Positions 31,714 through 58,946 of a stretch of 64,000 bases of DNA are shown one piece after another. Under the pieces are notes generated by a model. The model had not been told where the DNA came from. It ran no database searches and was given only the letters and a program-made list of their open reading frames with translations. Source of the stretch: Candidatus Woesearchaeota archaeon (GTDB taxonomy: Archaea; Nanobdellota; Nanobdellia; Pacearchaeales; GW2011-AR1); NCBI GenBank assembly GCA_964530955.1, contig CAZHCL010000003.1:1153-65152 (forward strand), written 5' to 3'. The translations under genes and the position numbers were made by a program. How positions within the stretch are numbered: the stretch's first letter is position 1; each line of letters begins with the position of its first letter.

Positions 31714-32477
31714 ATTCTCATAACTTTTCGATTGCCACTCTTTCTGACTTCTTTAAATCCTCTGAAAAAAAACTTAAGGTATTCTATTATCCATGGTCCG
31801 ACTGAAAAGCTAGATTTTCCGCCATAAAACCTGTTTATTGATATCATCGGAACTTCACCAAGCCTCATGTTCTCTCTTTGAGATATAATCGCCAGTTCAA
31901 AACCTATTGACCAACCCACCTTAGCCTTGAATTCCATATTCTTGAATTTAGATATCCTAAGCATCTTAATTCCATTTGTTGAATCAGTGAATGTGCGCGA
32001 CCCAAAAGAATAAAATATCTTGTTTGCCATTCTGGATAAAATTCTTTCTATAAACGAGCCTCCGTAAACTCTACCCCCATAAGAGTATCTGGTGCAACCA
32101 ACAATATCGCAACCTTCATCCATTAATTTAATTATTTTTTCAAGTTAAATAAGAGGACCAGAGTCATCTGCAGTCATTATAAATGCATATTTGCCTTTTG
32201 CCTCGTTAAGTCCAGTCTTTATAGCATTAGCGACGCCTCTTCCATAGCCATTTTTTACAAGCCTCAAATTTGAATATTGTGTCTGTAATTTTTTTACTAC
32301 TGGAACGCTGTCATCTTCATCAAAATCATACAATATAAGTATTTCATCTTCTTTTCCAAGAGTAGACTCAATAAATCTTATCATCATCTTAAGATTGACT
32401 CCTTCGTTAAAAACCGGAATTAGCACGGACAACTTTTTTCTTTCTCTATTTATTTTTTTCATTTTATCTTTTTCCAT
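31710..32477 (-). pseudogene. GT2 (DPM1-like) glycosyltransferase interrupted by one in-frame TAA
   Basis: ORFs 32145-32477 and 31710-32123 are in the same frame. The joined reading is ...FIMTADDSGPLI*LEKIIKLMDEGCDIVGCTRYSYGG..., which is collinear with a single GT2 (LSVLIPVFNEG ... ADD ... GSRY-like). The stop codon is at 32145-32147. Confidence 0.75.
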
Positions 32478-33195
32478 AAATTACAATTTAATGATGAATC
32501 CTTAGGTATGTTAAACTTTAAATCTTTTATTAATTCTTCAAACATGCATGAGCTTATATCCAGGTTTATTTCTTTATGCCTTTGGTACTCAGATTTTCTC
32601 TCCCCTCCCACATTTACCGTACCTATGAAATTTGATTCTAGTAAAACAGATATTGCCTTTACCATTTCCGAGATAGTTATTTTAGAGGTAAACAAATCCC
32701 TAGGGTATTTGTTAAAGCGGTTCTCAGTAGGATCAAAGAATCTTGCTCTGATTATGCAGAAGTTCGGAAGTAAATTTACCGAGCATTCAGCTCCGAGCTT
32801 CGACCATCCATACTTATTCACAGGAATTGCAGCGTCGGTTTCAGAATAATCTCCTTTTGAACCCCCATAAACCCCATCGGTTGAAATGTGTATAAATCTA
32901 ATTTCATTCTCCTTTTTCTGTTCAATAATCTCGCTGACCAAATTTGCGGTTCCTTTTATGTTAGTTTCGATGGCAGCAGCAGGATCTTTTTCGCAAACCA
33001 CCATCCTAGCTATGGCCGCGCAATTTATAACCGCATCAATTTTATTCTCGCTGAGAAATTTTTTTATTGTTTCAGGCTTTGTCAAATCCAGCTCTTATGA
33101 GTTGGAAGAATAATATTTTCAAACAAACCTGATTTCACTATCTGACTTCCAAGTTTACCCGAGGCCCCAGTAATCAAGATAGATCTAAGCTTCAT
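32459..33195 (-). pseudogene. RmlD-like (dTDP-4-dehydrorhamnose reductase family) SDR with a 1-nt frameshift after codon 34
   Basis: The ATG at 33195 gives MKLRSILITGASGKLGSQIVKSGLFENIILPTHK (Rossmann GxxGxxG), then a stop at 33082-33084. The rest (ELDLTKPETIKKFLSENKIDAVINCAA...YGWSKLGAE, YxxxK) continues in another frame from 33094. The ATG sits 1 nt after the upstream gene's stop, which is operon-like. Confidence 0.7.
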
Positions 33196-33196
33196 A

Positions 33197-34384
33197 TTAA
33201 TGGGTCTTTATAACTCCCCATAGGTCAATTAAATCCTTAACATTGTCCGGTAAAGTAAGATTTTTGTAAGCAGAATGAGGAACACCGACTAAAACTATCT
33301 CGCATTTTTTCATCAATTCTTCCTTTGAGACAAAATCTGGATTCTTAGCAAACTCATCTGAATAGTAAACTTCCGCTCCGTGGAATCTAAGTATCTTGCC
33401 CAGCTTAAATGACAAAGAGTCTCTAATATCATCTATATCTGCTTTAAATGCCATTCCGAGTATTCCTATTTTTTTCTTATGTAAATCTCCATACTTGCGC
33501 TTTAAGTTTTCAACTAAGAAATTAGGAAGACCTTCATTTATTATCATGGCTGCATGTCCCAAAAGAAAATTTGAACTGTCAAAAGATGCTAACTGCATAG
33601 TATCTTTCAAAAGACAAGGACCAGCTGCAAAGCCTGCTGATGGAAGATTAGCTAACCTGCCATAGCTTTCCATCATCGACTTTCTTAGATTATCGTAATC
33701 AACATCAAATCTTTTAGATATCATATAAAACTGGTTAGCGACCGCAAATTGAATATATCTCCAAGCATTGGAAAATAGTTTTATCAGTTCTGCTTCTTTT
33801 ATGGTTGTGTTTATTACTTTAGGTGAAATTGATTTGAATAATTCACTTGCTTCTTTAGATGCTTGCTCGGTAATCCCAGAAACAATCTGGGGAAGTTCTG
33901 AAAGTTCCTTTATTGCATATCCTTGAACTATCCTTTCAGGACAATAAGCTATCTTCCATTTCTTTTCCTCACCAAACAATTTATTAATTTGTTCGCATGT
34001 ATTAGGATAAACTGTGCTTCTTATTACTATCAACTGATTCTCATTTATATAAGGCTTAAAAGTTTTCATTACCTCCAAAAATTCCCTGGTTTTTGGGTTT
34101 AGGTATTCATCTATAGGCGTGCCTATGCAAAATATTATTGTTTTAGCTTTTGAAACTATTTCTTTGTCAAGAGAAACCTTTAAGTTACCACTGGATATAA
34201 CCTCTTTTAAAAGAGGTTCTGAACCATATTCAATAAAAGGCATTACTCCATTCATAATCGATAAAGCCTTTTCCTGATCTCTATCTAATAAAGTAACTTT
34301 GAAGCCTTTTTTTGCGAGCATTATTCCGAGAGGCAGACCTACATGCCCCAATCCACCGACAACAACTAATCCATTTTCTTCCAT
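33197..34384 (-). CDS. Nucleotide-sugar dehydrogenase (UDP-glucose/GDP-mannose dehydrogenase family)
   Basis: LVVVGGLGHVGLPLG (GxGxxG) and GFAAGPCLLKDT (catalytic Cys context). The start was set to the ATG at 34384 because a TATA box (revcomp TTTATAAT, 34406-34413) is 21 nt upstream. Confidence 0.8.
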   Translation of the reverse strand: MEENGLVVVGGLGHVGLPLGIMLAKKGFKVTLLDRDQEKALSIMNGVMPFIEYGSEPLLKEVISSGNLKVSLDKEIVSKAKTIIFCIGTPIDEYLNPKTREFLEVMKTFKPYINENQLIVIRSTVYPNTCEQINKLFGEEKKWKIAYCPERIVQGYAIKELSELPQIVSGITEQASKEASELFKSISPKVINTTIKEAELIKLFSNAWRYIQFAVANQFYMISKRFDVDYDNLRKSMMESYGRLANLPSAGFAAGPCLLKDTMQLASFDSSNFLLGHAAMIINEGLPNFLVENLKRKYGDLHKKKIGILGMAFKADIDDIRDSLSFKLGKILRFHGAEVYYSDEFAKNPDFVSKEELMKKCEIVLVGVPHSAYKNLTLPDNVKDLIDLWGVIKTH

Positions 34385-34405
34385 CAATTTCCTTAATTTA
34401 TTAAT

Positions 34406-34413
34406 ATTATAAA
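34406..34413 (-). promoter_or_regulatory. TATA box (TTTATAAT on minus strand) for the dehydrogenase / RmlD-like / GT2 operon
   Basis: 21-nt spacer to the ATG at 34384. Confidence 0.5.
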
Positions 34414-34502
34414 CATTACTATGATATAAAAACAAGGGTCTATTTTTGAATTATTGTTTCATAAATCCAAAACATTAAAAACCTTTTATTCAATGATTTT
34501 TT

Positions 34503-34781
34503 ATGGTTTTAGTTAAAATACTTGGTGCGTTGGACCTTTTTTCCTGCTTTGTATTCTTAATGCTGAACTTTGGAATACCTCCCTATTTTCAAGTGGTTTT
34601 GTTCTGTGCGGGATTACTTTTCCTAAAGGGGCTTTTTGTGTTGAGGGGAGAGCCATTAAGCATCATTGACTTATTTTCATCCCTTGTTCTTTTGCTTTCA
34701 TTGGGATTCCATGTTTCTCCAATTTTGCTCTGGATACCTTCTTTCTTGCTTCTGGCAAAAGGAATAGTAAGCTTCTTTTAG
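34503..34781 (+). CDS. Small membrane protein (3 TM), unknown function
   Basis: 92-aa hydrophobic ORF. An AT-rich box ATTAAAAA lies 21 nt upstream. Confidence 0.4.
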   Translation: MVLVKILGALDLFSCFVFLMLNFGIPPYFQVVLFCAGLLFLKGLFVLRGEPLSIIDLFSSLVLLLSLGFHVSPILLWIPSFLLLAKGIVSFF

Positions 34782-34804
34782 TTTTTTGAGAATTTAATTA
34801 AGAA

Positions 34805-35494
34805 TCACTTTTTCTTTGCATTCGTCTTAACCTTGTTTTCTTTAGGAGATTGCTTTGAAAGTGCATCTTTCTCTTTCTCTATTGCCTGTTCTAAATCATC
34901 AAGCTTCTTTATCTGTAGGGCAACATCTTTCTTTGACATTTTAGGATTCTCTGCTGCTCCCCCTCCAGCCTGTGCCTGCAACTTGCCTTTAAACTGCTCA
35001 GGGCTCATTTTCTGGACAAAATCCATTATAGACTTCTTTTCCATCTTAAGAACAGTCTTCGATGTATCCTCCACATGCGCATTTAATATAGTCATTCCAG
35101 ACAAAACACAGCTAAGGTTCCATACTTTTTTACCTTCAACATTTTGTATTATTGCAATAATCTTCTTTATGTCCGCAGTTATACTTCTGTTCTTCATTTC
35201 ATCTTCAAGAATACCGGGTATCTGGTCAAGATCAATATTTGTTTTCAAATCAAGTTTGTCAGGTACTTTTGAGTTCATAAGGTCAAGCATCTGCATAGTT
35301 ACTCCCTTATCAAGTGTAAAAGCAGCAATTTTCTTCTTATCAGGAACATAATAGTCAATCTGATGAACATTTTTGCCCTCTTCCATGTCCAAGACAAAGA
35401 ATCCTGCAACAATAAAAGTATTTTTGAACTCTTTTTGAAAATTCTTGAATACATCTGATTCATTCAGTTTTGTTACGTATGGTGCAATTTTCAT
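34805..35494 (-). CDS. Hypothetical protein with a Lys-rich coiled-coil tail
   Basis: 229-aa ORF with non-repetitive globular N-terminal ~170 aa and a C-terminal charged tail (KKLDDLEQAIEKEKDALSKQSPKENKVKTNAKKK). The antisense ORF 34833-35351 is low complexity. Confidence 0.5.
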   Translation of the reverse strand: MKIAPYVTKLNESDVFKNFQKEFKNTFIVAGFFVLDMEEGKNVHQIDYYVPDKKKIAAFTLDKGVTMQMLDLMNSKVPDKLDLKTNIDLDQIPGILEDEMKNRSITADIKKIIAIIQNVEGKKVWNLSCVLSGMTILNAHVEDTSKTVLKMEKKSIMDFVQKMSPEQFKGKLQAQAGGGAAENPKMSKKDVALQIKKLDDLEQAIEKEKDALSKQSPKENKVKTNAKKK

Positions 35495-35734: not shown

Positions 35735-37504
35735 TCAAAGTTTGCCTTCAATTTTATCTTTCAACTCTTTTATAAATTTATCAATTTTAACGTCAAACTC
35801 TGGCTTTTTATCTCCTCTTCTCCTTACCGCAAGTGTCTTCTTTTCCTCTTCCTTATCTCCAATAACTATCACATAAGGTATTTTTTGCATTTCAGCATCC
35901 CTCACCTTATCGCTTACAGTTGTGTTTCTAAAGTCAGAGTCTATTCTCAGATTAGGAATTTCTTTTCTTATGTTTTCAACTATTTTCTCGGCAGCCTTAT
36001 TGTTTCTGTCTGTGAAATTAATTACCCTTACCTGCACAGGAGAGAGCCAGACAGGCAAGGCGCCATTATAGTGCTCAATCAGTATTCCTATGAATCTTTC
36101 CAAGGATCCAAAAACTGCTCTATGAAGTATAAGAGGGGTATGGCTTTTTCCATCTTCACCCATATACTCTAATTCAAATCTCTTAGCAGCATTAAAATCA
36201 AGTTGAAGGGTTGAACATTGCCATTCTCTGCCCAAAGAGTCTTTAATCTGGACGTCAAGGCTTGGACCATAGAACTTTGCTTCTCCTTCCATCCTCTCAA
36301 ATTTTATCTTTTTCTTCTTCAAAATATTTGCAAGCGATTCCTCTGCGCTCTTCCATAGTTCATCAGATCCCAAATATTGACTTTTCTTCTCCTCGCTTCT
36401 CAGGCTAAGTGTAAAAGTATATGTGAATCCAAATTTCTTTAAGAACTTTTCAAATATATCAAGAACATTCAGGACTTCGCTTTCTATCTGATCCTCTCTT
36501 ATGAAAATATGAGCATCATCTTGATGTAACCTAATAACTCTGAAAAGTCCGTTCAAAACACCCGATAGTTCCATTCTGTGTAGCGGAGAATATTCTGATA
36601 TTCTTAATGGAAGGTCTTTATAACTTCTGGTTTTAGTTCTAAAATAAAGATAGTGGCCAGGGCAATTCATAGGTTTTAATGCGGCAGGTTTACCTTCATA
36701 TTCAGTCAAGAACATGTTCTCCTTGTATTTGCCCCAATGTCCAGAGACTCTCCAAAGTTTGTTATCATAAATCTGAGGAGTTGAAACTTCTTGATAACCT
36801 AATTCTTTCTGAAGCTCCTTTGAGAAATTAACCAGCTCAGTGAATAATATCTGACCTTTAGGATGCCAGAAAACGCTTCCAGGAGATGCCTCATTGAAGC
36901 TAAATAAATCTAATTTTTGTCCTAATATCCTATGGTCATTTTCCTTTAATTTAGAGGTGTCTAGCTTTGATCTTGATATTTCTTTGAGAAGTTTGGATAT
37001 ATCCTCCTCTTTAAACACATCATCTTTTATCATATTAATATTTGCTCCTTTTACAGATTGTGAAGTGGAAGTTATTCCAGATACTTCGCTTCTAAATTCC
37101 TTGCTTAATTCAGAAAGAGGATGCCCCTTGCACTTAAGCTCAAATTCCTTATAGTATCCAAAAGGAGCTCTAGTTACTTCAAACCCTTCTTTTTCCAAAA
37201 TCTGCTCTGCCTCAGTCAGATATTTAAGAGCAGTTTCAGGATCGCTCAGGTTAGAAGATAAATGAGCATAGGGATAAAGAACTAATTTATTCGCTTTAAC
37301 TTCCCCAGCAGTCTTTTTCACAGAAGCAATCATTTCTTTCAGAATTTTTTCATTATCTCCCTTTTCAACAGCAGTAAATATTACCAAAGGGTCTTTTACA
37401 TTTATTTCCTTCTTCCTTTCCTCGCTCAGTTCCTCAGGATTCTTTATTGCCTTTTTAACTGCCTTAAATTTGATATAGTCGCAGTGTAAGGTAAGTATTC
37501 TCAT
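35735..37504 (-). CDS. thrS: Threonyl-tRNA synthetase, archaeal type with N-terminal editing domain
   Basis: 589 aa. The N-terminus MRILTLHCDYIKFKAVKKAIKNPEE is the archaeal ThrRS editing-domain type. The class II core has HRMELSGVLNGLFRVIRLHQDDAHIF and AVFGSLERFIGILIEH, followed by a C-terminal anticodon-binding domain. Confidence 0.9.
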   Translation of the reverse strand: MRILTLHCDYIKFKAVKKAIKNPEELSEERKKEINVKDPLVIFTAVEKGDNEKILKEMIASVKKTAGEVKANKLVLYPYAHLSSNLSDPETALKYLTEAEQILEKEGFEVTRAPFGYYKEFELKCKGHPLSELSKEFRSEVSGITSTSQSVKGANINMIKDDVFKEEDISKLLKEISRSKLDTSKLKENDHRILGQKLDLFSFNEASPGSVFWHPKGQILFTELVNFSKELQKELGYQEVSTPQIYDNKLWRVSGHWGKYKENMFLTEYEGKPAALKPMNCPGHYLYFRTKTRSYKDLPLRISEYSPLHRMELSGVLNGLFRVIRLHQDDAHIFIREDQIESEVLNVLDIFEKFLKKFGFTYTFTLSLRSEEKKSQYLGSDELWKSAEESLANILKKKKIKFERMEGEAKFYGPSLDVQIKDSLGREWQCSTLQLDFNAAKRFELEYMGEDGKSHTPLILHRAVFGSLERFIGILIEHYNGALPVWLSPVQVRVINFTDRNNKAAEKIVENIRKEIPNLRIDSDFRNTTVSDKVRDAEMQKIPYVIVIGDKEEEKKTLAVRRRGDKKPEFDVKIDKFIKELKDKIEGKL

Positions 37505-37525
37505 GTAAAAAGTAGAATTTGTTAA

Positions 37526-37533
37526 TATTTAAA
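37526..37533 (-). promoter_or_regulatory. TATA box (TTTAAATA on minus strand) for thrS
   Basis: 21-nt spacer to the ATG at 37504. It lies just 3' of the stop of the exonuclease gene (37537). Confidence 0.55.
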
Positions 37534-37536
37534 GAT

Positions 37537-38430
37537 TTAGAATAAAGTACCCTCAAGACCATTCGTAGGTTTAGTACTATGCGAGGTTTTAGTTTCTTTC
37601 CTCTCAGGTTTTTTTTGTTCTTGTCTTGCAGAGAGTTGGTGTATTTTATCAATGTCTAGTCCACTAACCCTTAAATATTCCAATGTAGCAGCAAGAGTAG
37701 CAACATCTAAAACATTATGGTTAATAACTTTGGCCATGGGAGTTATAACATCTGCTTCAAATTCATCTTCCTTTCTTCCATAAACAAATTCTCGGTATAT
37801 GGTCGGTATATCAGCTCCCCTAACTTCATCCTCCCTATGTACCCCAAATAATATTTTTTCCAAAGTCTGAAGTTTGTTATCTGGTAATTCGGTTCCTTTC
37901 TTTTTAAGAAAATCACCAACAAGAGGATAAAGGTCACAGTGCCTATCGCCAAGCATTTTTTTAAGATCAGGCATTTCTCCTTTTCTGAAAAGAGCATACA
38001 TTTCAAGCCTTTTTGAAATTCTATCAAAATCAAAGGCAGTTCCATTATAAGTGAAGACTAAATCTGCCCTTCTTAGCAAATTAAAACATCTTCTCATAAT
38101 AGTTTCTTCTCCGTAATAGTCAAAGGCAAAAAGAGTTTCAGTTTCGAAGTCTCCATTAATACTCCCTAATGTAATAGTGTTAATCTGAGAGTCTGAAAAC
38201 AACCCGCAACTTTCTATGTCAATTAAATAAATTTTTCTATCTTCTAAACTCTTCGGAAGGCTTAGATAATAGGTTCTTATCATCTGAGGAATTTTTCCAT
38301 GGTCTATTTCAATTAACCCTTTAACAACTTCTAGATAATGATACCCTCTTCGGTCATTAATTATTCTACCGTGAGTTTTTTTAGCTAGTTCTCTCCATTT
38401 ATTTTCAACTTGTCTTTCATATTGTTTCAT
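37537..38430 (-). CDS. RNase H-fold DEDDh 3'-5' exonuclease, YprB/PolB-exo-like
   Basis: 297 aa. It has ExoI LIDIESCG (DxE), ExoII VFTYNGTAFDFDRI (N-x2-FD) and ExoIII HNVLDVATL (H-x3-D). The start overlaps the upstream stop (TGATG). Confidence 0.65.
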   Translation of the reverse strand: MKQYERQVENKWRELAKKTHGRIINDRRGYHYLEVVKGLIEIDHGKIPQMIRTYYLSLPKSLEDRKIYLIDIESCGLFSDSQINTITLGSINGDFETETLFAFDYYGEETIMRRCFNLLRRADLVFTYNGTAFDFDRISKRLEMYALFRKGEMPDLKKMLGDRHCDLYPLVGDFLKKKGTELPDNKLQTLEKILFGVHREDEVRGADIPTIYREFVYGRKEDEFEADVITPMAKVINHNVLDVATLAATLEYLRVSGLDIDKIHQLSARQEQKKPERKETKTSHSTKPTNGLEGTLF

Positions 38431-39836
38431 CAGGGCTCACCTTTTTTTATTAAATATTCAAGCATATCAATAACCCATTTTCTCTGCTCCTGAAGACCTT
38501 GTTTCGACAACATTTTTAAAGTTTTTTCCAAGCCCATTTTTGCATGGGTTTCTGTTAACGCTCTAAAGTTAATATTTGGATAAGCACCCTCAGAAACATG
38601 GTAATCTTGTTCCACTTTTTCAATTAAACTAAGAAAAGCTTGATGAAATTGATTAAACTCTATCACTCTTATTCCATGGTTTTCTATTCCGAGAAGTGCT
38701 TTTTCATATTTTCTTGGCTCTTGATGCAAAAATAAAATTGCTCCGTCCATAGGTTTCTCATCTTTCTTTCCATCTCTCCAGACGCTTTTTCCTCCATATT
38801 TATCAATAATTTCTTTTAATCCTCCTGGAAATATAGGATTATTATCTGCTTTAACCTCAATTGCAGTATTGCCTATTCTTCCATCAGCCCAACCCATTTT
38901 TCTAGAAGAGTATCTAAATCTTTTTCTACTATGCTCAAAATGAATTTCATTAAAATCAGGTAAACCCAGCCTTAAAGGATCGTCATATCCTCCTCTAGAT
39001 GTCCAGACTATATATGCTTGAACATATTTTTCGGCTAATTTTCCGCACTGGCCTGCCCCCCTAATGCCTGCTCTAATCTCAGAATTAGAGATATCTCCAA
39101 GATAGGCTGCTGTCTGAGTAAATGTGTTACATTTAGAAAGCTCAGAATGTTCTTTTTCTCTTAGAAATAATCCTTTGTGATCAAGAATATATTTTATTTG
39201 AAGACTTAATTTTCTGTGCCTTGGATCGGGAGAATGCCATAAATATTTTTCAGATATAGGTATCCCATTGCCCAAGGCTATTTGAATTTCAGTTTTAATT
39301 TTTTCAAAATCTATTGCTTCATCATTAGTCCTTCTGACAAGCAACCTATAAAGTCCCGGCCTTCTATCTTCCATAAATCTTGCCATTCGAGAACCTGATT
39401 CTCCACCTCTGTAACTGCTTTTTATCCACTTGTAACTATTAGGATGTTCTTTCTTAAAATCAGAGATGCTTGGTAATGGGTGCGAAACAGGATCATGGAC
39501 ATATCTCTCAACTTCATGAGCTTTCCAGAAGTGTCTAAAGGCGTGATCCGCTCTCTCTAAAAAATTATAATAATGAGCTTCTTCGTTTGTGGCAATTCCT
39601 AAAAGTTCAGCACCCGCTCTTATCGATTTTCTTGGACGGTCAGTATTCAGTAACCCGTATTTTCTTACATCTTCATAAACCTTCCCAGATAATCTTCCTC
39701 TCCTTCTAATCTCAAGTTCGGCTTCTCTCCTTGTTTCTTCTAGAGGTCTCAAATGAATTTTATATTTAAGAGTGCCTCCGCTGATTGTATAGCCTCCGTC
39801 AGGCAATTGCTCTACATGATAATTATTTTTTACCAT
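38430..39836 (-). CDS. Orphan 468-aa protein with a C-terminal PD-(D/E)xK-like nuclease motif
   Basis: No family recognised for residues 1-260; that part is Arg/His/Trp-rich. GKLAEKYVQAYIVW (E269) ... GWADGRIGNTAIEVKADN (D318, E327, K329; nt ~38850-38885) fits the E...D...ExK arrangement of restriction-endonuclease-like folds. Confidence 0.4.
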   Translation of the reverse strand: MVKNNYHVEQLPDGGYTISGGTLKYKIHLRPLEETRREAELEIRRRGRLSGKVYEDVRKYGLLNTDRPRKSIRAGAELLGIATNEEAHYYNFLERADHAFRHFWKAHEVERYVHDPVSHPLPSISDFKKEHPNSYKWIKSSYRGGESGSRMARFMEDRRPGLYRLLVRRTNDEAIDFEKIKTEIQIALGNGIPISEKYLWHSPDPRHRKLSLQIKYILDHKGLFLREKEHSELSKCNTFTQTAAYLGDISNSEIRAGIRGAGQCGKLAEKYVQAYIVWTSRGGYDDPLRLGLPDFNEIHFEHSRKRFRYSSRKMGWADGRIGNTAIEVKADNNPIFPGGLKEIIDKYGGKSVWRDGKKDEKPMDGAILFLHQEPRKYEKALLGIENHGIRVIEFNQFHQAFLSLIEKVEQDYHVSEGAYPNINFRALTETHAKMGLEKTLKMLSKQGLQEQRKWVIDMLEYLIKKGEP

Positions 39837-41355
39837 TTAATTTTCCACTTTTTACTTTTCGATGTAAGTCAGCAAGGGTCTCAATTGAATACTGCCCACT
39901 ATCGAATCTATTACCTGCTTCGGCTGTTATTGCTTCTAGAAACATCCAAGAAAGAGGGGCTTCTAACATTCCCTGACTTAATTTTTTTGCCCCATTAACA
40001 GGATAATACATCCTTTTTTCATCAAGAAGTTCTTTCAAAACAATTTCGTCAAGTTCAGCTCCGGCATTAGTTGATTTTATCTCAGCTACAACTGTTTCAG
40101 TGTATGTGTTGTCGAATAATCCCCCATCCATCCACATTAGATGAGGTTTTCCTAGATTTAATCTGAAATAATCGTAAACTGCTCGTGCTTCAGGCATCGT
40201 TAAAAGTTCCCTTACTTTAAAGCCTTCCAAATAATTAAAAGTTTTTTCTATTCCATTGCCATTGCCATCCGCTTTTTTAGCCATTGAAACAAGAACTCTT
40301 ACCAGTTGGGACTGACCATCTACTCCTCTTCTGTGAGCATCATTTGTGGATTGATTAATAAAAAATGAGTCAACATCCTCTCTAGAAGTATACAATAATG
40401 AGGCTAATTCTCCATGATAAAGAGGTCTTAGGTTTCTGGGCAATTTTGCAAAAGGTCCTCTTAACTCTTCCATAACTACCCTTCTTTCTTCGAGTTTTTG
40501 AAAGACCTCAATTCCCTTTGATTCCTTTATTCTATCAACAAGAAAATCAAGACTTCCTTGGCTGGAATCTAAACACAATTCAAGTTGTTCTCTTCCAGAT
40601 GGTTCTAACAACAATTCATCAATATCTTTTTTCCATGGCATCAACACTACATTTAATCCCTCACCAAGATTTTCCCTGCAAACTCTTTCAGCTGCTTTTT
40701 TACCCGGTTCATCTCCATCAAAAACTAATATTTTTTCTATAGTTGAATCTCCTCCAAGAGCATTAACCTTACTTATATGCTCAGCAGTTAAGGCTGTTCC
40801 GCAGGGGGAAACAACATTACAGATTCCATTCTGGTATGGAAGCAAAAGATCGAATGGACCTTCAACAAAGAAGCACCTACCCGCATCCCTTATACTCTTT
40901 TTCGCATGATAAATTCCGTAAAGAGTACTACTTTTATCATAAATAGTTGTTCCTCTTCCATTAAAATATTTTCTTGTTTCTTTTGGGTCTAACGTTCGTG
41001 CAGTGGCGCTCACTACTTCTCCTTTTTCATTAAATATAGGAAAAACAATTCTGTTTCTAAAGAAGTCATATGCTCTATCAGGAACTGCTTTGTCTCGTGA
41101 TACTAATCCTGCTTGAATTAAGCAGTCAAGAGGATATCCTTTCTCTTCTATAAATCTTTGATTTGCTAAAAAATTCCAATCATTAGGAGCATATCCTATC
41201 CTAAATCTATCAATTGTTTCAAGAGTAAGACCTCTTCCAGTTAAATAATCTTTAGCAAAACTGCTTTTCTGCAGTTGCTGTTGAAAAAGGGTGCATGCTT
41301 CTTCCCAAGCTCCCGTTAACATCTCTTTGCTAAACTCTCTTTCTTCCTCAGGCAT
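39823..41355 (-). CDS. dnaG: Bacterial-type DnaG primase catalytic core (RNA-polymerase subdomain + TOPRIM), no zinc-ribbon domain
   Basis: 510 aa. LFQQQLQKSSFAKDYLTGRGLTLETIDRFRIGYAP, FRNRIVFPIFNEKGEVV, KYFNGRGTTIYDKSSTLYGIY, FFVEGPFDLL (TOPRIM E) and LVFDGDEPGKKAA (DxD) are collinear with E. coli DnaG residues ~115-350. There is no CxxC/CxxH zinc ribbon at the N-terminus. Confidence 0.75.
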   Translation of the reverse strand: MPEEEREFSKEMLTGAWEEACTLFQQQLQKSSFAKDYLTGRGLTLETIDRFRIGYAPNDWNFLANQRFIEEKGYPLDCLIQAGLVSRDKAVPDRAYDFFRNRIVFPIFNEKGEVVSATARTLDPKETRKYFNGRGTTIYDKSSTLYGIYHAKKSIRDAGRCFFVEGPFDLLLPYQNGICNVVSPCGTALTAEHISKVNALGGDSTIEKILVFDGDEPGKKAAERVCRENLGEGLNVVLMPWKKDIDELLLEPSGREQLELCLDSSQGSLDFLVDRIKESKGIEVFQKLEERRVVMEELRGPFAKLPRNLRPLYHGELASLLYTSREDVDSFFINQSTNDAHRRGVDGQSQLVRVLVSMAKKADGNGNGIEKTFNYLEGFKVRELLTMPEARAVYDYFRLNLGKPHLMWMDGGLFDNTYTETVVAEIKSTNAGAELDEIVLKELLDEKRMYYPVNGAKKLSQGMLEAPLSWMFLEAITAEAGNRFDSGQYSIETLADLHRKVKSGKLNGKK

Positions 41356-41376: not shown

Positions 41377-41384
41377 TTATTAAG
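41377..41384 (-). promoter_or_regulatory. TATA-like box (CTTAATAA on minus strand) for the dnaG-like three-gene operon
   Basis: 21-nt spacer to the ATG at 41355. It matches the consensus less well than the other boxes. Confidence 0.4.
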
Positions 41385-41488: not shown

Positions 41489-42049
41489 ATGAACATAGTT
41501 AATACGGCTACATCAGGACTATCTTTTCTATTAGATGCTACTCGGCTTTTTCATTTAGTTGATGCTCCTAAAAAAAGAATTCCTCAGATAGCAAATGGAA
41601 AATTATTGGAAATCCCCGTTTACAGCATTTTTAGAGTTCCCCCTCTTAACTGCGCCAGATATACTCGTCTAGCTGCCAGAGATATATTCCATCTAGATTA
41701 TCCTGCAGGAGCTGCCTGGGAAAAGAAATATGGAACAATAACTGTTGCATCTGGAGGAGATTTAAATCTTAATGAACTTGCCAGAAGTAATACTATTCAT
41801 CCAGGAATGTTAGTAGGTTTATTCAATGATGATAGTCATTACAGAAACAGTTTAGATTCCCATGGTCAAAAAGTGGATGTTACCCATTCTGCTTTATATC
41901 TAGGAATGGATGAAGGAGATGCATTACTAGCAAATCAGTTTGTAGCGAAGACATTTGTTTTCCCATTTTCAAAAATGAGCTCTAATTTGCATGCAAGACA
42001 GGTTCTAGCCCCATTAAATTGGGAAACTGTTAAGAATTTTTCAATATAA
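41489..42049 (+). CDS. Hypothetical protein with a weak papain-like (NlpC/P60 or YiiX-type) signature
   Basis: 186 aa. A candidate Cys sits in PPLNCARYT. IHPGMLVGLFNDD...VTHSALYLG resembles the GD.v.f....H.giYlG block of NlpC/P60 amidases. The gene has visibly higher GC than its neighbours. Confidence 0.3.
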   Translation: MNIVNTATSGLSFLLDATRLFHLVDAPKKRIPQIANGKLLEIPVYSIFRVPPLNCARYTRLAARDIFHLDYPAGAAWEKKYGTITVASGGDLNLNELARSNTIHPGMLVGLFNDDSHYRNSLDSHGQKVDVTHSALYLGMDEGDALLANQFVAKTFVFPFSKMSSNLHARQVLAPLNWETVKNFSI

Positions 42050-43145
42050 ACTGGTCAAAAACTTTCTCGGCTTCTTTTCTTTTCTTTTGATGTTCTTTCA
42101 GGAATACATTGATTTTTTCAATCAATATAGCCTTTAATTCCCCCGAAAGAAGTTTTCCAGATTTATAATCATTATAAATCTTTGTCAGCTTTGTATCATC
42201 AGGTTCAAAGAAATATTTTAAGTACTGGAACGAAACGTCGATGTCAGGATTCCCTCCAAGCTTTCTATGCTCTTCCAAGGTATCTTTCCCTCCAGAAAAT
42301 GCATACTTGTTTATTTTCTTTTTAACATCCTCGGCAGAGTCAGAGAGATATATTACTCCATTAGACTGTTCAGAAGAACTCATCTTCGCCCCGCCGTTAA
42401 GTGAAGGCATAAACCTTGCATGAAGTGCAGCAGGCTTTTCAAATCCAAAATCTTTATGCTCGGCTATATCTCTTGTCAATCTTATGAAAGGATCCTGATC
42501 AATAGCCACAGGAACCACAGACATATGTTTTCCTCTAAGAAATTGAGGGAATAATATATGCGCCGCCTGCATTGCAGGATAAAAACTCCAGCCTATATTA
42601 TTTTCTGGTTTAAGACCAAAAGCAGCCTTAGAAGTTGAATAGGTTATTCTTTTTGCAACTCTTGCAGCATATTTGTAAATATCTGTGTAAGCAAAGTCCT
42701 CAAAAATGAAAGTCTTTCCTGGCTTGAACCCCAGCGCAATGAGATCTATTATATTATCTCTTGCGTATTCAATAACTTTGTCAAAACTCAAGTTTTCTTT
42801 AACGTAAAACTTTTCATCATCAGAGATCGGTATGAATACTTCACAATCAAACTGCTCCTGAAGTGATTTGGCAACAAGGAAAGGAACTAAATGACCCAAA
42901 TGCATCTTTTCTGAAGGCCCTCTTCCTGTCAAGACAGAAACTTTTTTACCCTTATCATGAGCGTCAAGCCATTTATCAAAGTCCCTATGCGCAAAATAAA
43001 GACTTCTTCTAATCAGAGGATGGCTATTTTTCAACCTTTCTTTGACGTTCTGATTAAGCGCGCTAACTCCAAACTCCTTAATCAGCTTTTCATAATCAAT
43101 CTCTCCCGAGACTTCCCAAGGAGTAACACTGAATTCTTTTTTCAT
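42030..43145 (-). CDS. trpS: Tryptophanyl-tRNA synthetase (archaeal/eukaryotic type)
   Basis: GRGPSEKMHLGHLVPF (HIGH) and KMSSS (KMSKS). The start was set to the ATG at 43145 (MKKEFSVTPWEV) because TATA box TTTATAAA (43167-43174) is 21 nt upstream. The 25-codon extension in the ORF track is hydrophobic junk. Confidence 0.9.
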   Translation of the reverse strand: MKKEFSVTPWEVSGEIDYEKLIKEFGVSALNQNVKERLKNSHPLIRRSLYFAHRDFDKWLDAHDKGKKVSVLTGRGPSEKMHLGHLVPFLVAKSLQEQFDCEVFIPISDDEKFYVKENLSFDKVIEYARDNIIDLIALGFKPGKTFIFEDFAYTDIYKYAARVAKRITYSTSKAAFGLKPENNIGWSFYPAMQAAHILFPQFLRGKHMSVVPVAIDQDPFIRLTRDIAEHKDFGFEKPAALHARFMPSLNGGAKMSSSEQSNGVIYLSDSAEDVKKKINKYAFSGGKDTLEEHRKLGGNPDIDVSFQYLKYFFEPDDTKLTKIYNDYKSGKLLSGELKAILIEKINVFLKEHQKKRKEAEKVFDQFILKNS

Positions 43146-43166
43146 AATGCTATCTGTGTGAACTTG

Positions 43167-43174
43167 TTTATAAA
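43167..43174 (-). promoter_or_regulatory. TATA box TTTATAAA for trpS
   Basis: 21-nt spacer to the ATG at 43145. Confidence 0.55.
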
Positions 43175-43203
43175 TATTCACAATCAGGAAAATTCCGATA
43201 AGA

Positions 43204-43211
43204 TTTAAATA
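43204..43211 (+). promoter_or_regulatory. TATA box TTTAAATA for the surface protein gene
   Basis: 21-nt spacer to the ATG at 43233. Confidence 0.55.
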
Positions 43212-43232
43212 TACATTCATTCATTGAATTAC

Positions 43233-53972: not shown

Positions 53973-54022
53973 GTTTATCTTAAATTAAAGTCTATTTATT
54001 AATTTGACTATCACTAGATAAG

Positions 54023-57539: not shown

Positions 57540-58916
57540 ATGACAAAGAGGGTTTTAATTTTAGCGTTAATAGTTGCCATGTTATTACCAGGTGTACTCG
57601 CTTCTCTGTCAGTTGAAAAAGTTGACAAAGGAAGTGTTATAATTTCTGAGCTGAATAATCCTGCTGTTTTCAATCTTACAATAAATAATCCTGATGGACC
57701 TCAACAGGCAGAAATATATTCTTTTACTGGAATCTCATTTAGCCCAAGAGGATTCTTTGATATTCAGACAGGACCAAACAATCTTGAAATGAGAGTCTAC
57801 CCAAGCCAGTCAATCCTGTCACAAAGAGGTCTTTACAATTTACAATATCAGATTAAGGGAACAACGAGCGGGATTACCGCTGATTCCCTGCAGATAAATA
57901 TTGTCGGTCTTAAAGATGCCCTAATAATGAAATCCTCAGACCTAAATCTTGGGGATGATAAATTGATCTTGCAGGTTACAAATACACAAAATACTAATCT
58001 TGAAAATCTCAATCTTGATTTTTCTTCATTATTCTTTAATGAAAGCAAAACTTTATCCCTTACTCCCTATCAATCAGCAAATGTAAGCATTGATATAAAT
58101 AAGGATAATATAAAATCGCTTTCGGCGGGAAGGTACACATTCACCGTAGGAGTAGGTCTTCAAAGCGCAAGAGTCAGCGTTGATGGAAGTCTTAATTATC
58201 TTCCAAAAGAAGCATCAACACTCTATCAGAGCGGAAGGGGTTTTGTTCTGAGGCAGACGAATTATACCAGAACAAATACTGGAAATGTTCCCATGACTGC
58301 TCAAATTCAGTTAACCGAAGATATTTTGAGCAGACTTTTCACACTCAATTCAGCAGATGCAACTCAAGTTAACAGACATGCGTTATATGCTACCTACATC
58401 TGGGAAAAGAGCTTGCAACCAGGAGAATCCTTCTCTGTAATCTCAACCACAAATTATACTCTACCTTTAATATTTGTTTTGCTCATTGTGGTAATCGCTC
58501 TTCTTGTAAAGTTATATACAAGAACAAATCTAGTTGCTGACAAGAGAGTTTCCTATGTAAAGACCAGAGGCGGAGAATTCGCCCTTAAGGTTACGATACA
58601 TGTAAAAGCAAAGAAATATGTTGAGAATATACAATTAATAGATAGATTACCTGGAGTCGCCCAGCTTTATGAAAAGTTTGGAATAATGCCTGATAAATTC
58701 GACAAAGCAACAAAGAGACTGTTCTGGAATATTGAAAGACTTAACGCGGGCGAAGAGAGAGTATATTCATATATAATCTATTCAAAAGTAAGAATAGTTG
58801 GCAGATTCGAATTGCCTCCTGCAACTCTTATTTATTTGAGAGATGGAAAGACTGAGCAGACATTATCAAACAAGGCATTCTTTGTCACAGAGACAAACAG
58901 AAGTGACATTTATTAG
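57540..58916 (+). CDS. Membrane protein: signal peptide, beta-rich ectodomain, one TM, second beta-rich domain
   Basis: Signal-like N-terminus MTKRVLILALIVAMLLPGVLAS and TM helix LPLIFVLLIVVIALLVKLY. The C-terminal IQLIDRLPGVAQ...WNIERLNAGEERVYSYIIY resembles DUF11/CARDB-type Ig-like domains. TATA box TTTATATA lies 21 nt upstream. Confidence 0.5.
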   Translation: MTKRVLILALIVAMLLPGVLASLSVEKVDKGSVIISELNNPAVFNLTINNPDGPQQAEIYSFTGISFSPRGFFDIQTGPNNLEMRVYPSQSILSQRGLYNLQYQIKGTTSGITADSLQINIVGLKDALIMKSSDLNLGDDKLILQVTNTQNTNLENLNLDFSSLFFNESKTLSLTPYQSANVSIDINKDNIKSLSAGRYTFTVGVGLQSARVSVDGSLNYLPKEASTLYQSGRGFVLRQTNYTRTNTGNVPMTAQIQLTEDILSRLFTLNSADATQVNRHALYATYIWEKSLQPGESFSVISTTNYTLPLIFVLLIVVIALLVKLYTRTNLVADKRVSYVKTRGGEFALKVTIHVKAKKYVENIQLIDRLPGVAQLYEKFGIMPDKFDKATKRLFWNIERLNAGEERVYSYIIYSKVRIVGRFELPPATLIYLRDGKTEQTLSNKAFFVTETNRSDIY

Positions 58917-58938: not shown

Positions 58939-58946
58939 TTTAATAA
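58939..58946 (+). promoter_or_regulatory. TATA box TTTAATAA for the proS-gatD operon
   Basis: 21-nt spacer to the ATG at 58968. Confidence 0.5.

What the first reader, a model, noticed from the sequence alone, without database searches (positions are those of the whole stretch)
37537..41355. Overlapping three-gene operon: DnaG-type primase core + orphan nuclease-like protein + DEDDh exonuclease (best candidate for an undescribed system)
Three minus-strand genes are translationally coupled: 39823-39836 is a 14-nt overlap, and TGATG shares base 38430. They follow one TATA-like box at 41377-41384. The products are (1) a bacterial-type DnaG RNA-polymerase/TOPRIM core without a zinc ribbon, (2) a 468-aa protein with no family I recognise except a C-terminal E...D...ExK arrangement, and (3) a YprB/PolB-exo-like DEDDh 3'-5' exonuclease. 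No helicase, polymerase, integrase or Rep gene accompanies them. I do not recognise primer synthesis plus endonuclease-like plus proofreading-type exonuclease as any described replication, repair or defence module. It could be a relic mobile-element replication module, a DNA-targeting defence system, or a lineage-specific repair system. All three options are inference.
Basis: partly seen in the sequence, partly recalled or inferred. Interest (0 to 1): 0.8.

Follow-up and report, generated by a model that had tools for sequence, protein, structure and literature searches.

The report
Archaeal primase–double-nuclease operon, undescribed
A small group of tiny symbiotic (DPANN) archaea carries a conserved three-gene operon that joins a bacterial-type DNA primase to an undescribed nuclease-like protein and a proofreading-type exonuclease; no described replication, repair or defence system has this combination.

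Summary
Three overlapping minus-strand genes encode a bacterial-type DnaG core without a zinc ribbon, a 468-aa protein with no database family, and a PF13482 DEDD-type exonuclease.

The 468-aa protein is not an orphan. An exhaustive HMMER search found 55 clusters. Eight long members are fusions to the exonuclease.

In about 24 distinct lineages, the exonuclease follows the 468-family gene wherever downstream sequence exists. A DnaG-derived gene precedes it wherever enough upstream sequence exists. All named carriers are Woese-/Pace-/Nanoarchaeia-type DPANN. None was found in viral, phage or plasmid collections.

The trio sits among housekeeping genes, often in the order TrpRS–trio–ThrRS.

AlphaFold models (pLDDT 91–93) plus invariant E269/D318/E327/K329 indicate a PD-(D/E)xK-like nuclease domain. 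No fold match is significant.

The DnaG partner erodes by lineage. Only a trio-specific C-terminal domain is universal.

Best reading: a chromosomal DNA replication/repair complex in which a two-nuclease core is tethered to a primase-derived subunit (inferred, confidence 0.45). Defence, nucleotide salvage and a domesticated viral module remain rivals. I found no description of it in the paper library searched.

The parts
41377..41384 (-). Candidate TATA-like box (CTTAATAA), 21 nt upstream of the ATG of gene 1. Compatible with a leaderless transcript.
   Evidence: Sequence. The heptamer is not enriched in the window (34 matches against 45.6 expected). It occurs at the same distance before the RtcB and ProRS starts. 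Inference only.
39823..41355 (-). Gene 1: bacterial-type DnaG-derived primase subunit, 510 aa, no zinc ribbon.
   Evidence: PF08275 at 6.5e-33 plus Toprim_2/4. TIGR01391 scores 213.5 bits against model positions 106-397. PDB bacterial DnaG polymerase domains match at 1e-30. The nearest relatives outside the trio are genuine bacterial dnaG-rpoD genes.
40900..41286 (-). DnaG catalytic-core N-subdomain (aa 24-152), including a KYxN...LYG motif (RKYFNGRGTTIYDKSSTLYG).
40609..40872 (-). TOPRIM domain (aa 162-249). Acidic residues E165 and D169 (VEGPFD) and D213 and D215 (FDGDEPG) are intact.
39826..40224 (-). Trio-specific C-terminal domain of the DnaG-like protein (aa 378-510). Proposed docking domain for the nuclease unit.
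   Evidence: A leave-one-out HMM recognises aa 378-467 (E 1.6e-6). It also recognises L011, L012 and L018, but none of 114 bacterial DnaGs. The domain is kept in L012 and L035, where the polymerase domain is absent.
39823..39836 (-). 14-nt overlap between the stop of gene 1 and the start of gene 2.
38430..39836 (-). Gene 2: founding member here of an unannotated family ('X468'), 468 aa.
   Evidence: No family hit. 55 homologous clusters. AlphaFold model with pLDDT 93.1.
38589..39101 (-). PD-(D/E)xK-like alpha/beta domain (aa 246-416).
   Evidence: Domain model with pLDDT 91.3 and alpha-beta-beta-beta-alpha-beta order. Top-ranked but non-significant fold hits are MspJI, VC1899, Cdn1/Can2, FANCM-FAAP24 and XPF, and Mrr, TnsA and YqaJ.
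39030..39032 (-). Codon of E269, on the long helix that precedes the beta-sheet.
   Evidence: Near-invariant in the family.
38850..38885 (-). D318-G-R-I-G-N-T-A-I-E327-V-K329: the putative active-site hairpin.
   Evidence: D318 is invariant. E327, V328 and K329 are at least 90% conserved. They are conserved in 22 of 22 lineages, except K to R in L012.
38437..38441 (-). SD-like GGTGA, 6 nt before the ATG of gene 3, inside the 3' end of gene 2.
   Evidence: Sequence. Functional role is inferred.
37537..38430 (-). Gene 3: DEDD-type 3'-5' exonuclease of the PF13482 / PolB-exo / MrfB (YprB) kind, 297 aa. Its start shares base 38430 with the TGA of gene 2.
   Evidence: PF13482 at 1.1e-17. Weak PolB exonuclease hits in the PDB. 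The fused homologues hit MrfB 8un9.
38212..38220 (-). ExoI motif: D71-I-E73.
   Evidence: Conserved in all lineages.
38029..38031 (-). ExoII aspartate D134, within YNGTAFD.
   Evidence: Conserved in all lineages that have coverage.
37705..37719 (-). ExoIII motif: H238-N-V-L-D242 (Hx3D, the same spacing as the Yx3D of PolB).
   Evidence: Conserved in all lineages that have coverage.
35735..37504 (-). Context, not part of the unit: archaeal ThrRS, 32 nt downstream. It has its own TTTAAATA in the spacer.
   Evidence: The same neighbour is present in L012, L018, L023, L024, L029 and L034.
42030..43220 (-). Context, not part of the unit: class-I TrpRS/TyrRS-type synthetase upstream.
   Evidence: The same neighbour is present in L011, L012, L016, L024, L025 and L034.

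Best explanation
The operon encodes a chromosomal protein complex found in a restricted set of DPANN archaea (Woese-/Pace-/Nanoarchaeia-type).

Its constant catalytic core is a pair of nucleases. One is a new family with a PD-(D/E)xK-like endonuclease domain (gene 2). The other is a PolB-exo/MrfB-like DEDD 3'-5' exonuclease (gene 3). The two act as one unit and are fused into one polypeptide in many lineages.

Gene 1 is a DnaG primase of bacterial origin. It has replaced the usual DnaB-binding end with a trio-specific C-terminal domain. I propose that this domain docks the primase on the nuclease pair.

Proposed mechanism, which is inferred and not shown: at damaged or stalled replication intermediates, the endonuclease domain incises a branched or gapped DNA. 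The exonuclease then resects the 3' end. In most lineages, including this one, the tethered primase lays down an RNA primer on the exposed single strand so that the archaeal polymerase can refill the gap. I call this 'cut, resect, re-prime'.

Shown: gene order, coupling, fusion, conservation of the active sites, the high-confidence fold, the bacterial affinity of the primase core, and the housekeeping context.

Inferred: the physical complex, DNA as the substrate, and the order of the steps.
For: 1. Strict co-occurrence and order. The exonuclease is immediately downstream of the 468-family gene in 30 of 30 loci with downstream sequence. A DnaG-like gene is upstream wherever there is enough upstream sequence. 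The same holds for the most divergent family members.
2. Fusion. Eight of eight long homologues are 468-family + PF13482 fusions. Loci L007, L009, L015 and L034 also carry fusions.
3. Start/stop overlaps occur in the window and in relatives.
4. Active sites are under selection. E269, D318, E327 and K329 are conserved in 22 of 22 lineages, with one K to R exception. The DEDD + H residues are conserved in every exonuclease. The TOPRIM E and DxD are conserved in 13 of 15 DnaG-like proteins.
5. The AlphaFold models reach pLDDT 93.1 and 91.3. They show alpha-beta-beta-beta-alpha-beta order, with D318 at the start of one strand and ExK on the next. The top-ranked fold neighbours are PD-(D/E)xK nucleases in three independent searches.
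6. The C-terminal domain of the DnaG-like protein is trio-specific. It is the only part retained in every lineage.
7. The context is core-genome:
- TrpRS-trio-ThrRS in the window, L012, L024 and L034.
- One of the two synthetases in L011, L016, L018, L023, L025 and L029.
- GluRS, HisRS and TGT in L009.
- PheRS-beta and both RFC subunits in L005.
- FEN1 divergently adjacent in L036.
8. GC content is flat across the region.
9. No relatives were found in IMG/VR, phage or plasmid collections.
10. The RNA-polymerase domain is 35-39% identical to genuine bacterial replicative DnaGs encoded in dnaG-rpoD operons.
11. Cluster-2 DPANN are reported to use a fused PriS-PriL as their replicative primase (PMC7414124). 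This DnaG would therefore be an additional primase, not the replicative one.
Against: - No experiment or homology to a characterised system supports the proposed order of events.
- The PD-(D/E)xK assignment rests on motif, topology and ranking only. No fold or profile match is significant: the best Foldseek E-value is 0.11 with TM 0.44, and there is no consistent Pfam signal in 36 members.
- Primase chemistry is dispensable in some lineages. The polymerase domain is absent in L012 and L035 and catalytically dead in L018. Re-priming therefore cannot be the universal function.
- The family is sparse for a housekeeping function: 55 clusters among 1.84 billion representatives, and 6 loci among 185,579 species genomes.
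- The family evolves fast. It shows 24-31% identity where the flanking synthetases show 44-57%.
- Identities did not track those of ThrRS or TrpRS (rho 0.04 and 0.12). Vertical inheritance is therefore not demonstrated.
Confidence: 0.45

Rival explanations
1. The trio is an anti-virus or anti-plasmid defence system. The nuclease pair degrades invading DNA. The DnaG-derived subunit senses or marks foreign single-stranded DNA.
For: - Sparse distribution.
- Rapid sequence divergence and no congruence with the flanking synthetases.
- Modular erosion of one subunit.
- The DnaG region matches the primase-like parts of the PADLOC DRT models UG29 and RTasDnaG-like.
- An AbiEii gene lies 3 kb downstream in L034.
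- DPANN archaea are reported to lack CRISPR-Cas and restriction-modification systems (bioRxiv 10.1101/2025.04.20.649705).
Against: - The trio holds the same position between housekeeping genes in deeply diverged lineages.
- There is no island signature or GC shift.
- Genes 2 and 3 hit no PADLOC model.
- There is no ATPase, sensor, methylase or toxin partner.
- No copies were found on viruses or plasmids.
Confidence: 0.15
2. The trio is a nucleotide-salvage or DNA-scavenging machine. The endonuclease and exonuclease break down host-derived or imported DNA to supply nucleotides to a symbiont that cannot make them. T7 gp3 and gp6 do this for the phage (established knowledge of T7).
For: - A constant endonuclease + exonuclease core with intact active sites.
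- The primase is dispensable in several lineages.
- The carriers are DPANN with small genomes. DPANN metabolic dependence on hosts is described in PMC6349945.
Against: - It does not explain why a primase-derived subunit is always retained and coupled.
- There is no signal peptide, transporter or nucleotide-metabolism gene fixed next to the trio.
- An unregulated cytoplasmic DNase pair would need an immunity mechanism, and none is seen.
Confidence: 0.12
3. The trio is a domesticated remnant of a viral or plasmid replication module (primase + junction endonuclease + exonuclease, T7-like) that became fixed in the chromosome of an ancestor.
For: - The enzyme set resembles the T7 class II genes gp3, gp4 and gp6 (established knowledge).
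- The DnaG matches phage primase PHROGs as strongly as it matches TIGR01391: phrog_6444 at 213.7 bits against 213.5 bits.
- Domain erosion of the primase in several lineages.
- The RPD phylogeny is unresolved, and the window/L011 pair sits beside Parcubacteria-type DnaG.
Against: - There is no integrase, Rep, helicase, polymerase, capsid or att-like feature nearby in any locus.
- No viral or plasmid relatives of gene 2 were found.
- The nearest DnaG relatives are cellular dnaG-rpoD genes.
- The nuclease active sites are strictly conserved, so the module is in use and is not a relic.
Confidence: 0.1
4. The complex acts on RNA, in tRNA or rRNA processing or quality control. The archaeal DnaG-exosome association is the precedent.
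For: - The trio is repeatedly next to tRNA-related genes: TrpRS, ThrRS, GluRS, HisRS, TGT, PheRS-beta, an Elp3-like protein and ThiI.
- DEDD and PD-(D/E)xK superfamilies both include RNases (established knowledge).
- Cluster-2 DPANN lack the exosome subunit Csl4 (PMC7414124), the subunit that anchors archaeal DnaG to the exosome (Hou et al. 2013, as listed).
Against: - Gene 1 is of the bacterial DNA-templated primase type. Relatives have a CHC2 zinc ribbon, and the KYxNSPET-like and TOPRIM motifs are intact.
- A separate archaeal-type Toprim protein exists in L012.
- The exonuclease is closest to the DNA exonucleases PolB-exo and MrfB.
- Information-processing genes are dense in these small genomes, so adjacency to them is weak evidence.
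Confidence: 0.08
5. Gene 1 is simply the cell's bacterial-type replicative primase, and genes 2 and 3 are unrelated neighbours.
For: - The RNA-polymerase domain is intact.
- The context is housekeeping.
Against: - Genes 2 and 3 are fused in many lineages.
- Co-occurrence and gene order are strict.
- The DnaG carries a trio-specific C-terminal domain.
- The polymerase domain is lost in L012 and L035 while the operon persists.
- PriS-PriL is reported as the replicative primase of this clade.
Confidence: 0.03

Closest known systems
Bacterial DnaG primase within the DnaG-DnaB primosome
   Same: Gene 1 has the DnaG catalytic core. It carries PF08275 + TOPRIM with intact acidic residues, and matches solved bacterial DnaG polymerase domains at 1e-30. 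Relatives in other lineages also have the CHC2 zinc ribbon.
   Different: - The window copy lacks the zinc ribbon.
- No DnaB-binding C-terminal domain is detectable. It is replaced by a trio-specific domain.
- The fixed partners are two nucleases, not a helicase.
- The host is an archaeon that is reported to use PriS-PriL.
MrfAB (YprA/YprB) mitomycin-adduct excision repair of Bacillus subtilis
   Same: Gene 3 belongs to the same PF13482 family as MrfB. MrfB is a metal-dependent DnaQ-like exonuclease that is coupled by operon to a partner enzyme.
   Different: - The partner here is not a YprA-type helicase.
- Gene 3 has no TPR tail.
- A primase and a PD-(D/E)xK-like protein are present instead.
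Bacteriophage T7 DNA-metabolism genes gp3 (endonuclease I), gp4 (primase-helicase) and gp6 (exonuclease)
   Same: The enzyme classes match: a DnaG-type primase, a PD-(D/E)xK endonuclease and an exonuclease encoded together. This comparison rests on established knowledge and was not tested here.
   Different: - There is no helicase domain and no viral context.
- The exonuclease is a 3'-5' DEDD type, not the 5'-3' type of gp6.
- Gene 2 shows no detectable homology to gp3.
LigD-type repair enzymes (primase-polymerase + 3'-end nuclease + ligase) of bacterial NHEJ
   Same: The concept matches: a primase is physically joined to an end-processing nuclease for DNA repair. This comparison rests on established knowledge.
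   Different: - The primase superfamily differs: AEP in LigD, DnaG/TOPRIM here.
- There is no ligase or Ku.
- There is no sequence relationship.
PD-(D/E)xK nuclease domains of Card1/Can2/VC1899, MspJI/Mrr and XPF/FANCM
   Same: These are the best-ranked structural neighbours of aa 246-416. The catalytic arrangement E...D...ExK is the same.
   Different: - The matches are not significant (E at least 0.11, TM at most 0.44).
- There is no CARF, methyl-DNA-binding or helicase module.
- About 250 N-terminal residues and about 50 C-terminal residues have no structural neighbour.
Archaeal DnaG (exosome-associated TOPRIM protein)
   Same: It is a TOPRIM-containing 'DnaG' in an archaeon.
   Different: Gene 1 is of the bacterial type. 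It has a DNAG_N subdomain, relatives have a zinc ribbon, and its nearest relatives are bacterial. A separate Toprim-only protein is present in L012.

Membership tests
Bacterial DnaG primase (TIGR01391; PF01807 + PF08275 + TOPRIM + PF08278) | CHC2 zinc-ribbon DNA-binding domain (PF01807) | tested here: not met
   The window protein starts at TIGR01391 position 106. There is no Pfam hit and no remnant upstream. The ribbon is present in relatives L005, L009, L010, L016, L034 and L036.
Bacterial DnaG primase | RNA-polymerase domain: DNAG_N subdomain plus TOPRIM with a conserved Glu and a DxD | tested here: met
   PF08275 at 6.5e-33 and Toprim_2 at 4.2e-11. E165, D169, D213 and D215 and the KYxN...LYG motif are present. 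PDB DnaG matches at 1e-30.
Bacterial DnaG primase | C-terminal DnaB-helicase-binding domain (PF08278) | tested here: not met
   No Pfam hit. hhalign of the last 140 aa against the last 150 aa of bacterial DnaG gives probability 8.5%. None of 114 bacterial DnaGs matches the trio C-terminal-domain HMM.
Bacterial DnaG primase | Score above the equivalog cut-off | tested here: not met
   TIGR01391 scores 213.5 bits against a cut-off of 283.6.
Bacterial DnaG primase | Primer synthesis on single-stranded DNA, in partnership with DnaB | not testable with these tools
   This needs biochemistry. Whether the genome encodes DnaB could not be checked from one 64-kb window.
PD-(D/E)xK nuclease superfamily | Catalytic signature: an acidic residue on helix 1, D at the start of a beta-strand, and (D/E)xK on the next strand | tested here: met
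   E269, D318, E327 and K329. D318 is invariant and the others are at least 90% conserved. Conserved in 22 of 22 lineages.
PD-(D/E)xK nuclease superfamily | alpha-beta-beta-beta-alpha-beta core fold | tested here: met
   The predicted models (pLDDT 93.1 and 91.3) show H251-280, strands 314-316, 319-321 and 324-329, H337-347, and strand 365-370. This is a prediction, not a solved structure.
PD-(D/E)xK nuclease superfamily | Significant sequence or structure similarity to an established member | tested here: inconclusive
   The best Foldseek hits are MspJI (E 0.11), VC1899 (probability 0.72, TM 0.44) and Cdn1 (TM 0.43). The best viral hit is an Mrr-type enzyme at E 0.37. There is no Pfam or PDB profile hit.
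DEDD 3'-5' exonucleases of the PF13482 / PolB-exo / MrfB kind | Pfam PF13482 above the gathering score | tested here: met
   65 bits against a cut-off of 22.
DEDD 3'-5' exonucleases of the PF13482 / PolB-exo / MrfB kind | ExoI DxE, ExoII D, and ExoIII H/Y-x3-D | tested here: met
   D71, E73, D134, H238 and D242, conserved in all lineages with coverage.
MrfAB repair system | A YprA-type helicase partner and a TPR tail on the exonuclease | tested here: not met
   No helicase is present in any of the 36 loci. Gene 3 has no TPR hit.
Known anti-phage defence systems (PADLOC) | All components match models of one system, and the system lies in a variable island | tested here: not met
   Only the DnaG region hits the primase-like parts of DRT models. 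Gene 2 has no hit, and gene 3 has only a marginal 13-bit hit to a homing-endonuclease model. The flanks are conserved housekeeping genes.
Archaeal (exosome-type) DnaG | A TOPRIM protein without the DNAG_N subdomain or zinc ribbon, inherited vertically in all archaea | tested here: not met
   The DNAG_N subdomain is present. The nearest relatives are bacterial. A separate Toprim-only gene is present in L012.

The most novel reading that the evidence does not exclude
The trio is a previously unrecognised kind of archaeal genome-maintenance machine. A bacterial primase was captured by DPANN archaea and re-wired through a new C-terminal domain. It now works on a fused endonuclease/3'-5' exonuclease core built around a protein family with no structural neighbour. 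The result is a 'cut, resect, re-prime' complex with no counterpart in bacterial, archaeal or eukaryotic replication and repair.
Probability: 0.3. Interest if true: 0.8.

Novelty: new variant of a known kind. Interest (0 to 1): 0.66.

Why it matters
DPANN archaea have very small genomes, and most are thought to depend on a host. How they replicate and repair DNA with so few recognisable genes is poorly understood. This operon matters for four reasons:
- It documents a bacterial-type DnaG in archaea as part of a fixed three-gene module. It is not a stray transfer.
- It defines a new protein family with a confident predicted fold that has no significant neighbour in the PDB or in viral structure sets.
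- It offers a natural experiment in subunit erosion. The zinc ribbon, the polymerase domain or the catalytic residues are lost in different lineages, while the docking domain persists.
- It gives three small, soluble-looking proteins that can be tested directly for primase, endonuclease and exonuclease activities and for complex formation.

If the complex couples incision, resection and re-priming, it would be a new solution to gap or fork repair. If it turns out to be a defence or DNA-scavenging device, it would be a new one for a group reported to lack CRISPR-Cas and restriction-modification.

Tried and rejected
- **Word-indexed protein searches.** With the 468-aa protein and with its family profile, these found only the protein itself plus one member. 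Only the exhaustive HMMER search found the family.
- **Database family searches.** Pfam, NCBIfam, PADLOC and PHROGs gave nothing for gene 2. A scan of all 36 members at E up to 10 gave no shared family. PDB sequence and profile searches gave only noise, or the MrfB hit from the fused exonuclease part.
- **Fold searches.** Foldseek with the whole chain and with the isolated domain gave no hit with E below 0.1.
- **Genome scan.** The first attempt failed because alignment A2 was too divergent. It was repeated with A3.
- **Identity correlation with ThrRS and TrpRS.** This was meant as a test of a host-like phylogeny. It showed no correlation, so I treat it as uninformative or mildly contrary, not as support.
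- **NJ tree of the primase polymerase domain.** It was unresolved: the trio was a clade in 2 of 60 bootstraps (the first attempt timed out). I make no claim about a single or multiple acquisition of the catalytic core.
- **hhalign comparisons.** The trio C-terminal domain against the bacterial DnaG C-terminus, and the gene 2 N-terminal region against either of them, gave no signal. The idea that gene 2 mimics the DnaB N-terminal domain is unsupported.
- **Split zinc ribbon.** I rejected the idea that the window's DnaG has a separate zinc ribbon nearby.
- **RNA elements.** I rejected an RNA element as part of the locus. There are no tRNA or Rfam hits in the window.
- **Literature.** Five searches found no description of the trio. 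The library does not cover all journals.

Full report
**1.
Three minus-strand ORFs occupy 39823-41355 (510 aa), 38430-39836 (468 aa) and 37537-38430 (297 aa). Genes 1 and 2 overlap by 14 nt. The stop of gene 2 and the start of gene 3 form TGATG and share base 38430. A GGTGA lies 6 nt before the ATG of gene 3.

- Gene 1 matches PF08275 (6.5e-33) and Toprim models. It aligns to TIGR01391 only from model position 106, so it has no zinc ribbon. No ribbon remnant lies upstream.
- Gene 2 matches nothing in Pfam, NCBIfam, PADLOC, PHROGs or PDB sequences.
- Gene 3 matches PF13482 (1.1e-17), and weakly matches the family-B polymerase exonuclease.

The proposed TATA box is CTTAATAA at 41384-41377. The heptamer is not enriched in the window: 34 matches against 45.6 expected. 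It sits at the same distance from the start codon as copies in front of RtcB and ProRS. It is plausible but unproven.

ThrRS starts 32 nt after gene 3. That spacer contains its own TTTAAATA.

**2. The middle protein belongs to a family.**
The word-indexed search found only the protein itself. The exhaustive HMMER search found 55 clusters, 34 of them below 1e-10. One member is annotated 'hypothetical protein [Candidatus Pacearchaeota archaeon]'.

Eight homologues of 687-839 aa carry PF13482 at their C-terminus. They are fusions of gene 2 and gene 3.

The family alignments have two invariant columns, D318 and W353. Near-invariant residues include E269, R320, E327, V328 and K329.

**3. Structure of the middle protein.**
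An AlphaFold model built on the family alignment has mean pLDDT 93.1. It contains:
- a small N-terminal beta unit;
- a helical region up to about residue 280;
- an alpha/beta domain (about residues 298-410);
- C-terminal helices.

A separate model of residues 246-416 has pLDDT 91.3. E269 lies on the long helix, D318 at the start of a strand, and E327-x-K329 on the next strand. This is the arrangement of PD-(D/E)xK nucleases.

No Foldseek hit is significant. However, the best-ranked hits are PD-(D/E)xK proteins in three independent searches:
- MspJI, VC1899, Cdn1 and FANCM/FAAP24 with the whole chain;
- Mrr-type and other restriction enzymes, TnsA and YqaJ in the viral library;
- MspJI (E 0.11), VC1899 (TM 0.44), Cdn1, FANCM-FAAP24, XPF and Can2 with the isolated domain.

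I accept a PD-(D/E)xK-like nuclease domain as likely, at about 0.8. The remaining 300 or so residues have no recognisable neighbour.

**4. The trio is a conserved unit.**
I collected 36 loci:
- the same organism (L001-L004, L019);
- six GTDB species genomes, all named Woesearchaeota, Pacearchaeota or Nanoarchaeia;
- thirteen metagenome contigs;
- contigs looked up for individual family members;
- two loci (L032, L033) that are bacterial dnaG-rpoD controls rather than trio loci.

HMM searches over the first 31 loci show the exonuclease directly after the 468-family gene in 30 of 30 loci with downstream sequence. They show a DnaG-like gene directly before it wherever enough upstream sequence exists. 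The three most divergent members show the same order.

No relative of gene 2 was found in IMG/VR, in 50,697 phage records or in 72,556 plasmids.

**5. Genomic context is housekeeping.**
In the window the trio lies between a TrpRS-type gene and ThrRS. Thermosome, RtcB, archease, ProRS and GatD genes are nearby. GC content is flat.

- TrpRS-trio-ThrRS recurs in L012, L024 and L034. In these loci the middle protein is only 21-27% identical to the window's.
- One of the two synthetases flanks the trio in L011, L016, L018, L023, L025 and L029.
- Elsewhere the neighbours are GluRS, an Elp3-like enzyme, HisRS and TGT (L009), PheRS-beta and both RFC subunits (L005), or FEN1 (L036).
- No integrase, Rep, helicase or polymerase is present in any locus.

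**6. The DnaG-derived subunit is the variable part.**
Its polymerase domain is 35-39% identical to genuine bacterial DnaGs encoded in dnaG-rpoD operons. One of these is from Parcubacteria.

The TOPRIM Glu and DxD are intact in 13 of 15 lineages, including the window. Other features vary:
- the zinc ribbon is missing in the window, L011 and L018;
- the whole polymerase domain is missing in L012 and L035, which keep only a ribbon and the C-terminal domain;
- L018 has lost the catalytic acidic residues;
- L007, L026 and L027 have the gene in two ORFs.

The only universal part is the C-terminal 130-150 residues. Leave-one-out HMMs of this region recognise the window (E 1.6e-6), L011, L012 (2.7e-14) and L018, but none of 114 bacterial DnaGs. 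No similarity to the bacterial helicase-binding end is detectable.

I infer that this domain docks the subunit on the nuclease pair.

**7. What argues for caution.**
- The family is sparse: 55 clusters among 1.84 billion representatives, and 6 of 185,579 species genomes.
- It evolves quickly.
- Pairwise identities do not track those of ThrRS or TrpRS (rho 0.04 and 0.12, ten pairs each).
- A simple NJ tree of the polymerase domain does not recover the trio primases as a clade.

Vertical inheritance is therefore suggested by synteny but is not proven. A conflict-related role cannot be excluded.

**8. Interpretation.**
The constant, strictly conserved part is an endonuclease-like protein plus a DEDD 3'-5' exonuclease acting as one unit. 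A primase-derived subunit is tethered to it.

The literature held here reports that cluster-2 DPANN use a fused PriS-PriL primase for replication (PMC7414124; PMC6349945). This DnaG is therefore an extra primase.

The most economical model is a replication-associated repair complex that incises, resects and, in most lineages, re-primes. I give it a confidence of 0.45.

Rivals, with my confidence in each:
- a defence system (0.15);
- DNA scavenging for nucleotides (0.12);
- a domesticated viral replication module (0.10);
- an RNA-directed role (0.08);
- unrelated neighbours of an ordinary primase (0.03), which the fusions and co-occurrence contradict.

**9. Comparison with known systems.**
Each component belongs to a known superfamily: bacterial DnaG, PD-(D/E)xK (probable), and PF13482 / MrfB / PolB-exo. 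No described system shares more than one component with this trio:
- the DnaG-DnaB primosome lacks the nucleases;
- MrfAB pairs the exonuclease with a helicase;
- T7 gp3/gp4/gp6 has the same enzyme classes but includes a helicase, uses a 5'-3' exonuclease and is viral;
- LigD joins a different primase superfamily to an end nuclease.

I found no paper describing the trio in five searches. The library is not complete.

**10. Verdict.**
This is a real, conserved module, undescribed as far as I could find, built on a new protein family. I file it as a new variant of known primase and nuclease DNA-metabolism modules. I give a 0.3 probability that it is a new kind of machine. Interest: 0.66.

Noticed in passing
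window 17930-20170 (-): A 746-aa ORF combines a pyruvate-kinase barrel domain (PF00224, 4.5e-61) with PUA_2 and ATP-sulfurylase domains (PF01747, 1.3e-78). This is an unusual fusion of a glycolytic enzyme domain with a sulfate-activation enzyme.
   Followed up: no
window 41489-42049 (+): A divergently transcribed 186-aa ORF lies between TrpRS and the operon and has no family hit. The same slot is occupied in relatives: a homologue in L016/L017 (1e-22), a 194-aa protein with a weak Phage_lysozyme hit in L011, and a 164-aa Peptidase_M15 protein in L034. This may be a conserved small cell-wall hydrolase slot.
   Followed up: partly
window 1-33000: The left half of the window is a glycosylation and surface-polysaccharide cluster. 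It includes an STT3/AglB-type oligosaccharyltransferase, several GT1, GT2, GT4 and GT9 glycosyltransferases, PMT_2, a Polysacc_synt flippase and a DegT aminotransferase.
   Followed up: partly
L001 10353-16273 compared with window about 32400-34800: A contig from the same organism has identical trio proteins but diverges from the window just beyond the 229-aa gene (window 34805-35494). L001 continues with GT2, epimerase and Polysacc_synt genes. This suggests strain-level variation in the glycan cluster next to the conserved region.
   Followed up: no
window 37505-37536 (-): The 32-nt spacer between gene 3 and ThrRS contains TTTAAATA about 22-29 nt before the ThrRS ATG. ThrRS probably has its own leaderless promoter rather than depending on read-through.
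   Followed up: no
window 53996-54002 (-) and 58940-58946 (+): TTAATAA occurs 21-23 nt upstream of the RtcB and ProRS start codons. The spacing is the same as before gene 1 of the operon. This hints at a shared promoter element for leaderless genes in this organism.
   Followed up: partly
L007 4753-6232, L026 5202-6656, L027 5177-6656: In one Nanoarchaeia lineage the DnaG-like gene is split into two ORFs, a zinc-ribbon part and a polymerase part. The split appears in three independent contigs, so it is probably real and not an assembly error.
   Followed up: partly
L012 19716-20894 (-): A separate 392-aa Toprim_4-only protein lies about 8 kb from the trio. It is probably the archaeal exosome-type DnaG. 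Both DnaG kinds therefore coexist in one genome.
   Followed up: no
L034 9693-10349 (-): An AbiEii toxin-family gene lies about 3 kb downstream of the trio in one relative. This is the only defence-type gene seen near any copy.
   Followed up: no
window 61786-63414 (+): A 542-aa protein has an OB-fold (tRNA_anti-codon) and a DHH domain. It is probably a RecJ/Cdc45-like (GAN-type) nuclease, and it is the only other replication or repair candidate seen in the window.
   Followed up: no
window 57540-58916 (+): A 458-aa ORF has no Pfam hit at E up to 0.001.
   Followed up: no
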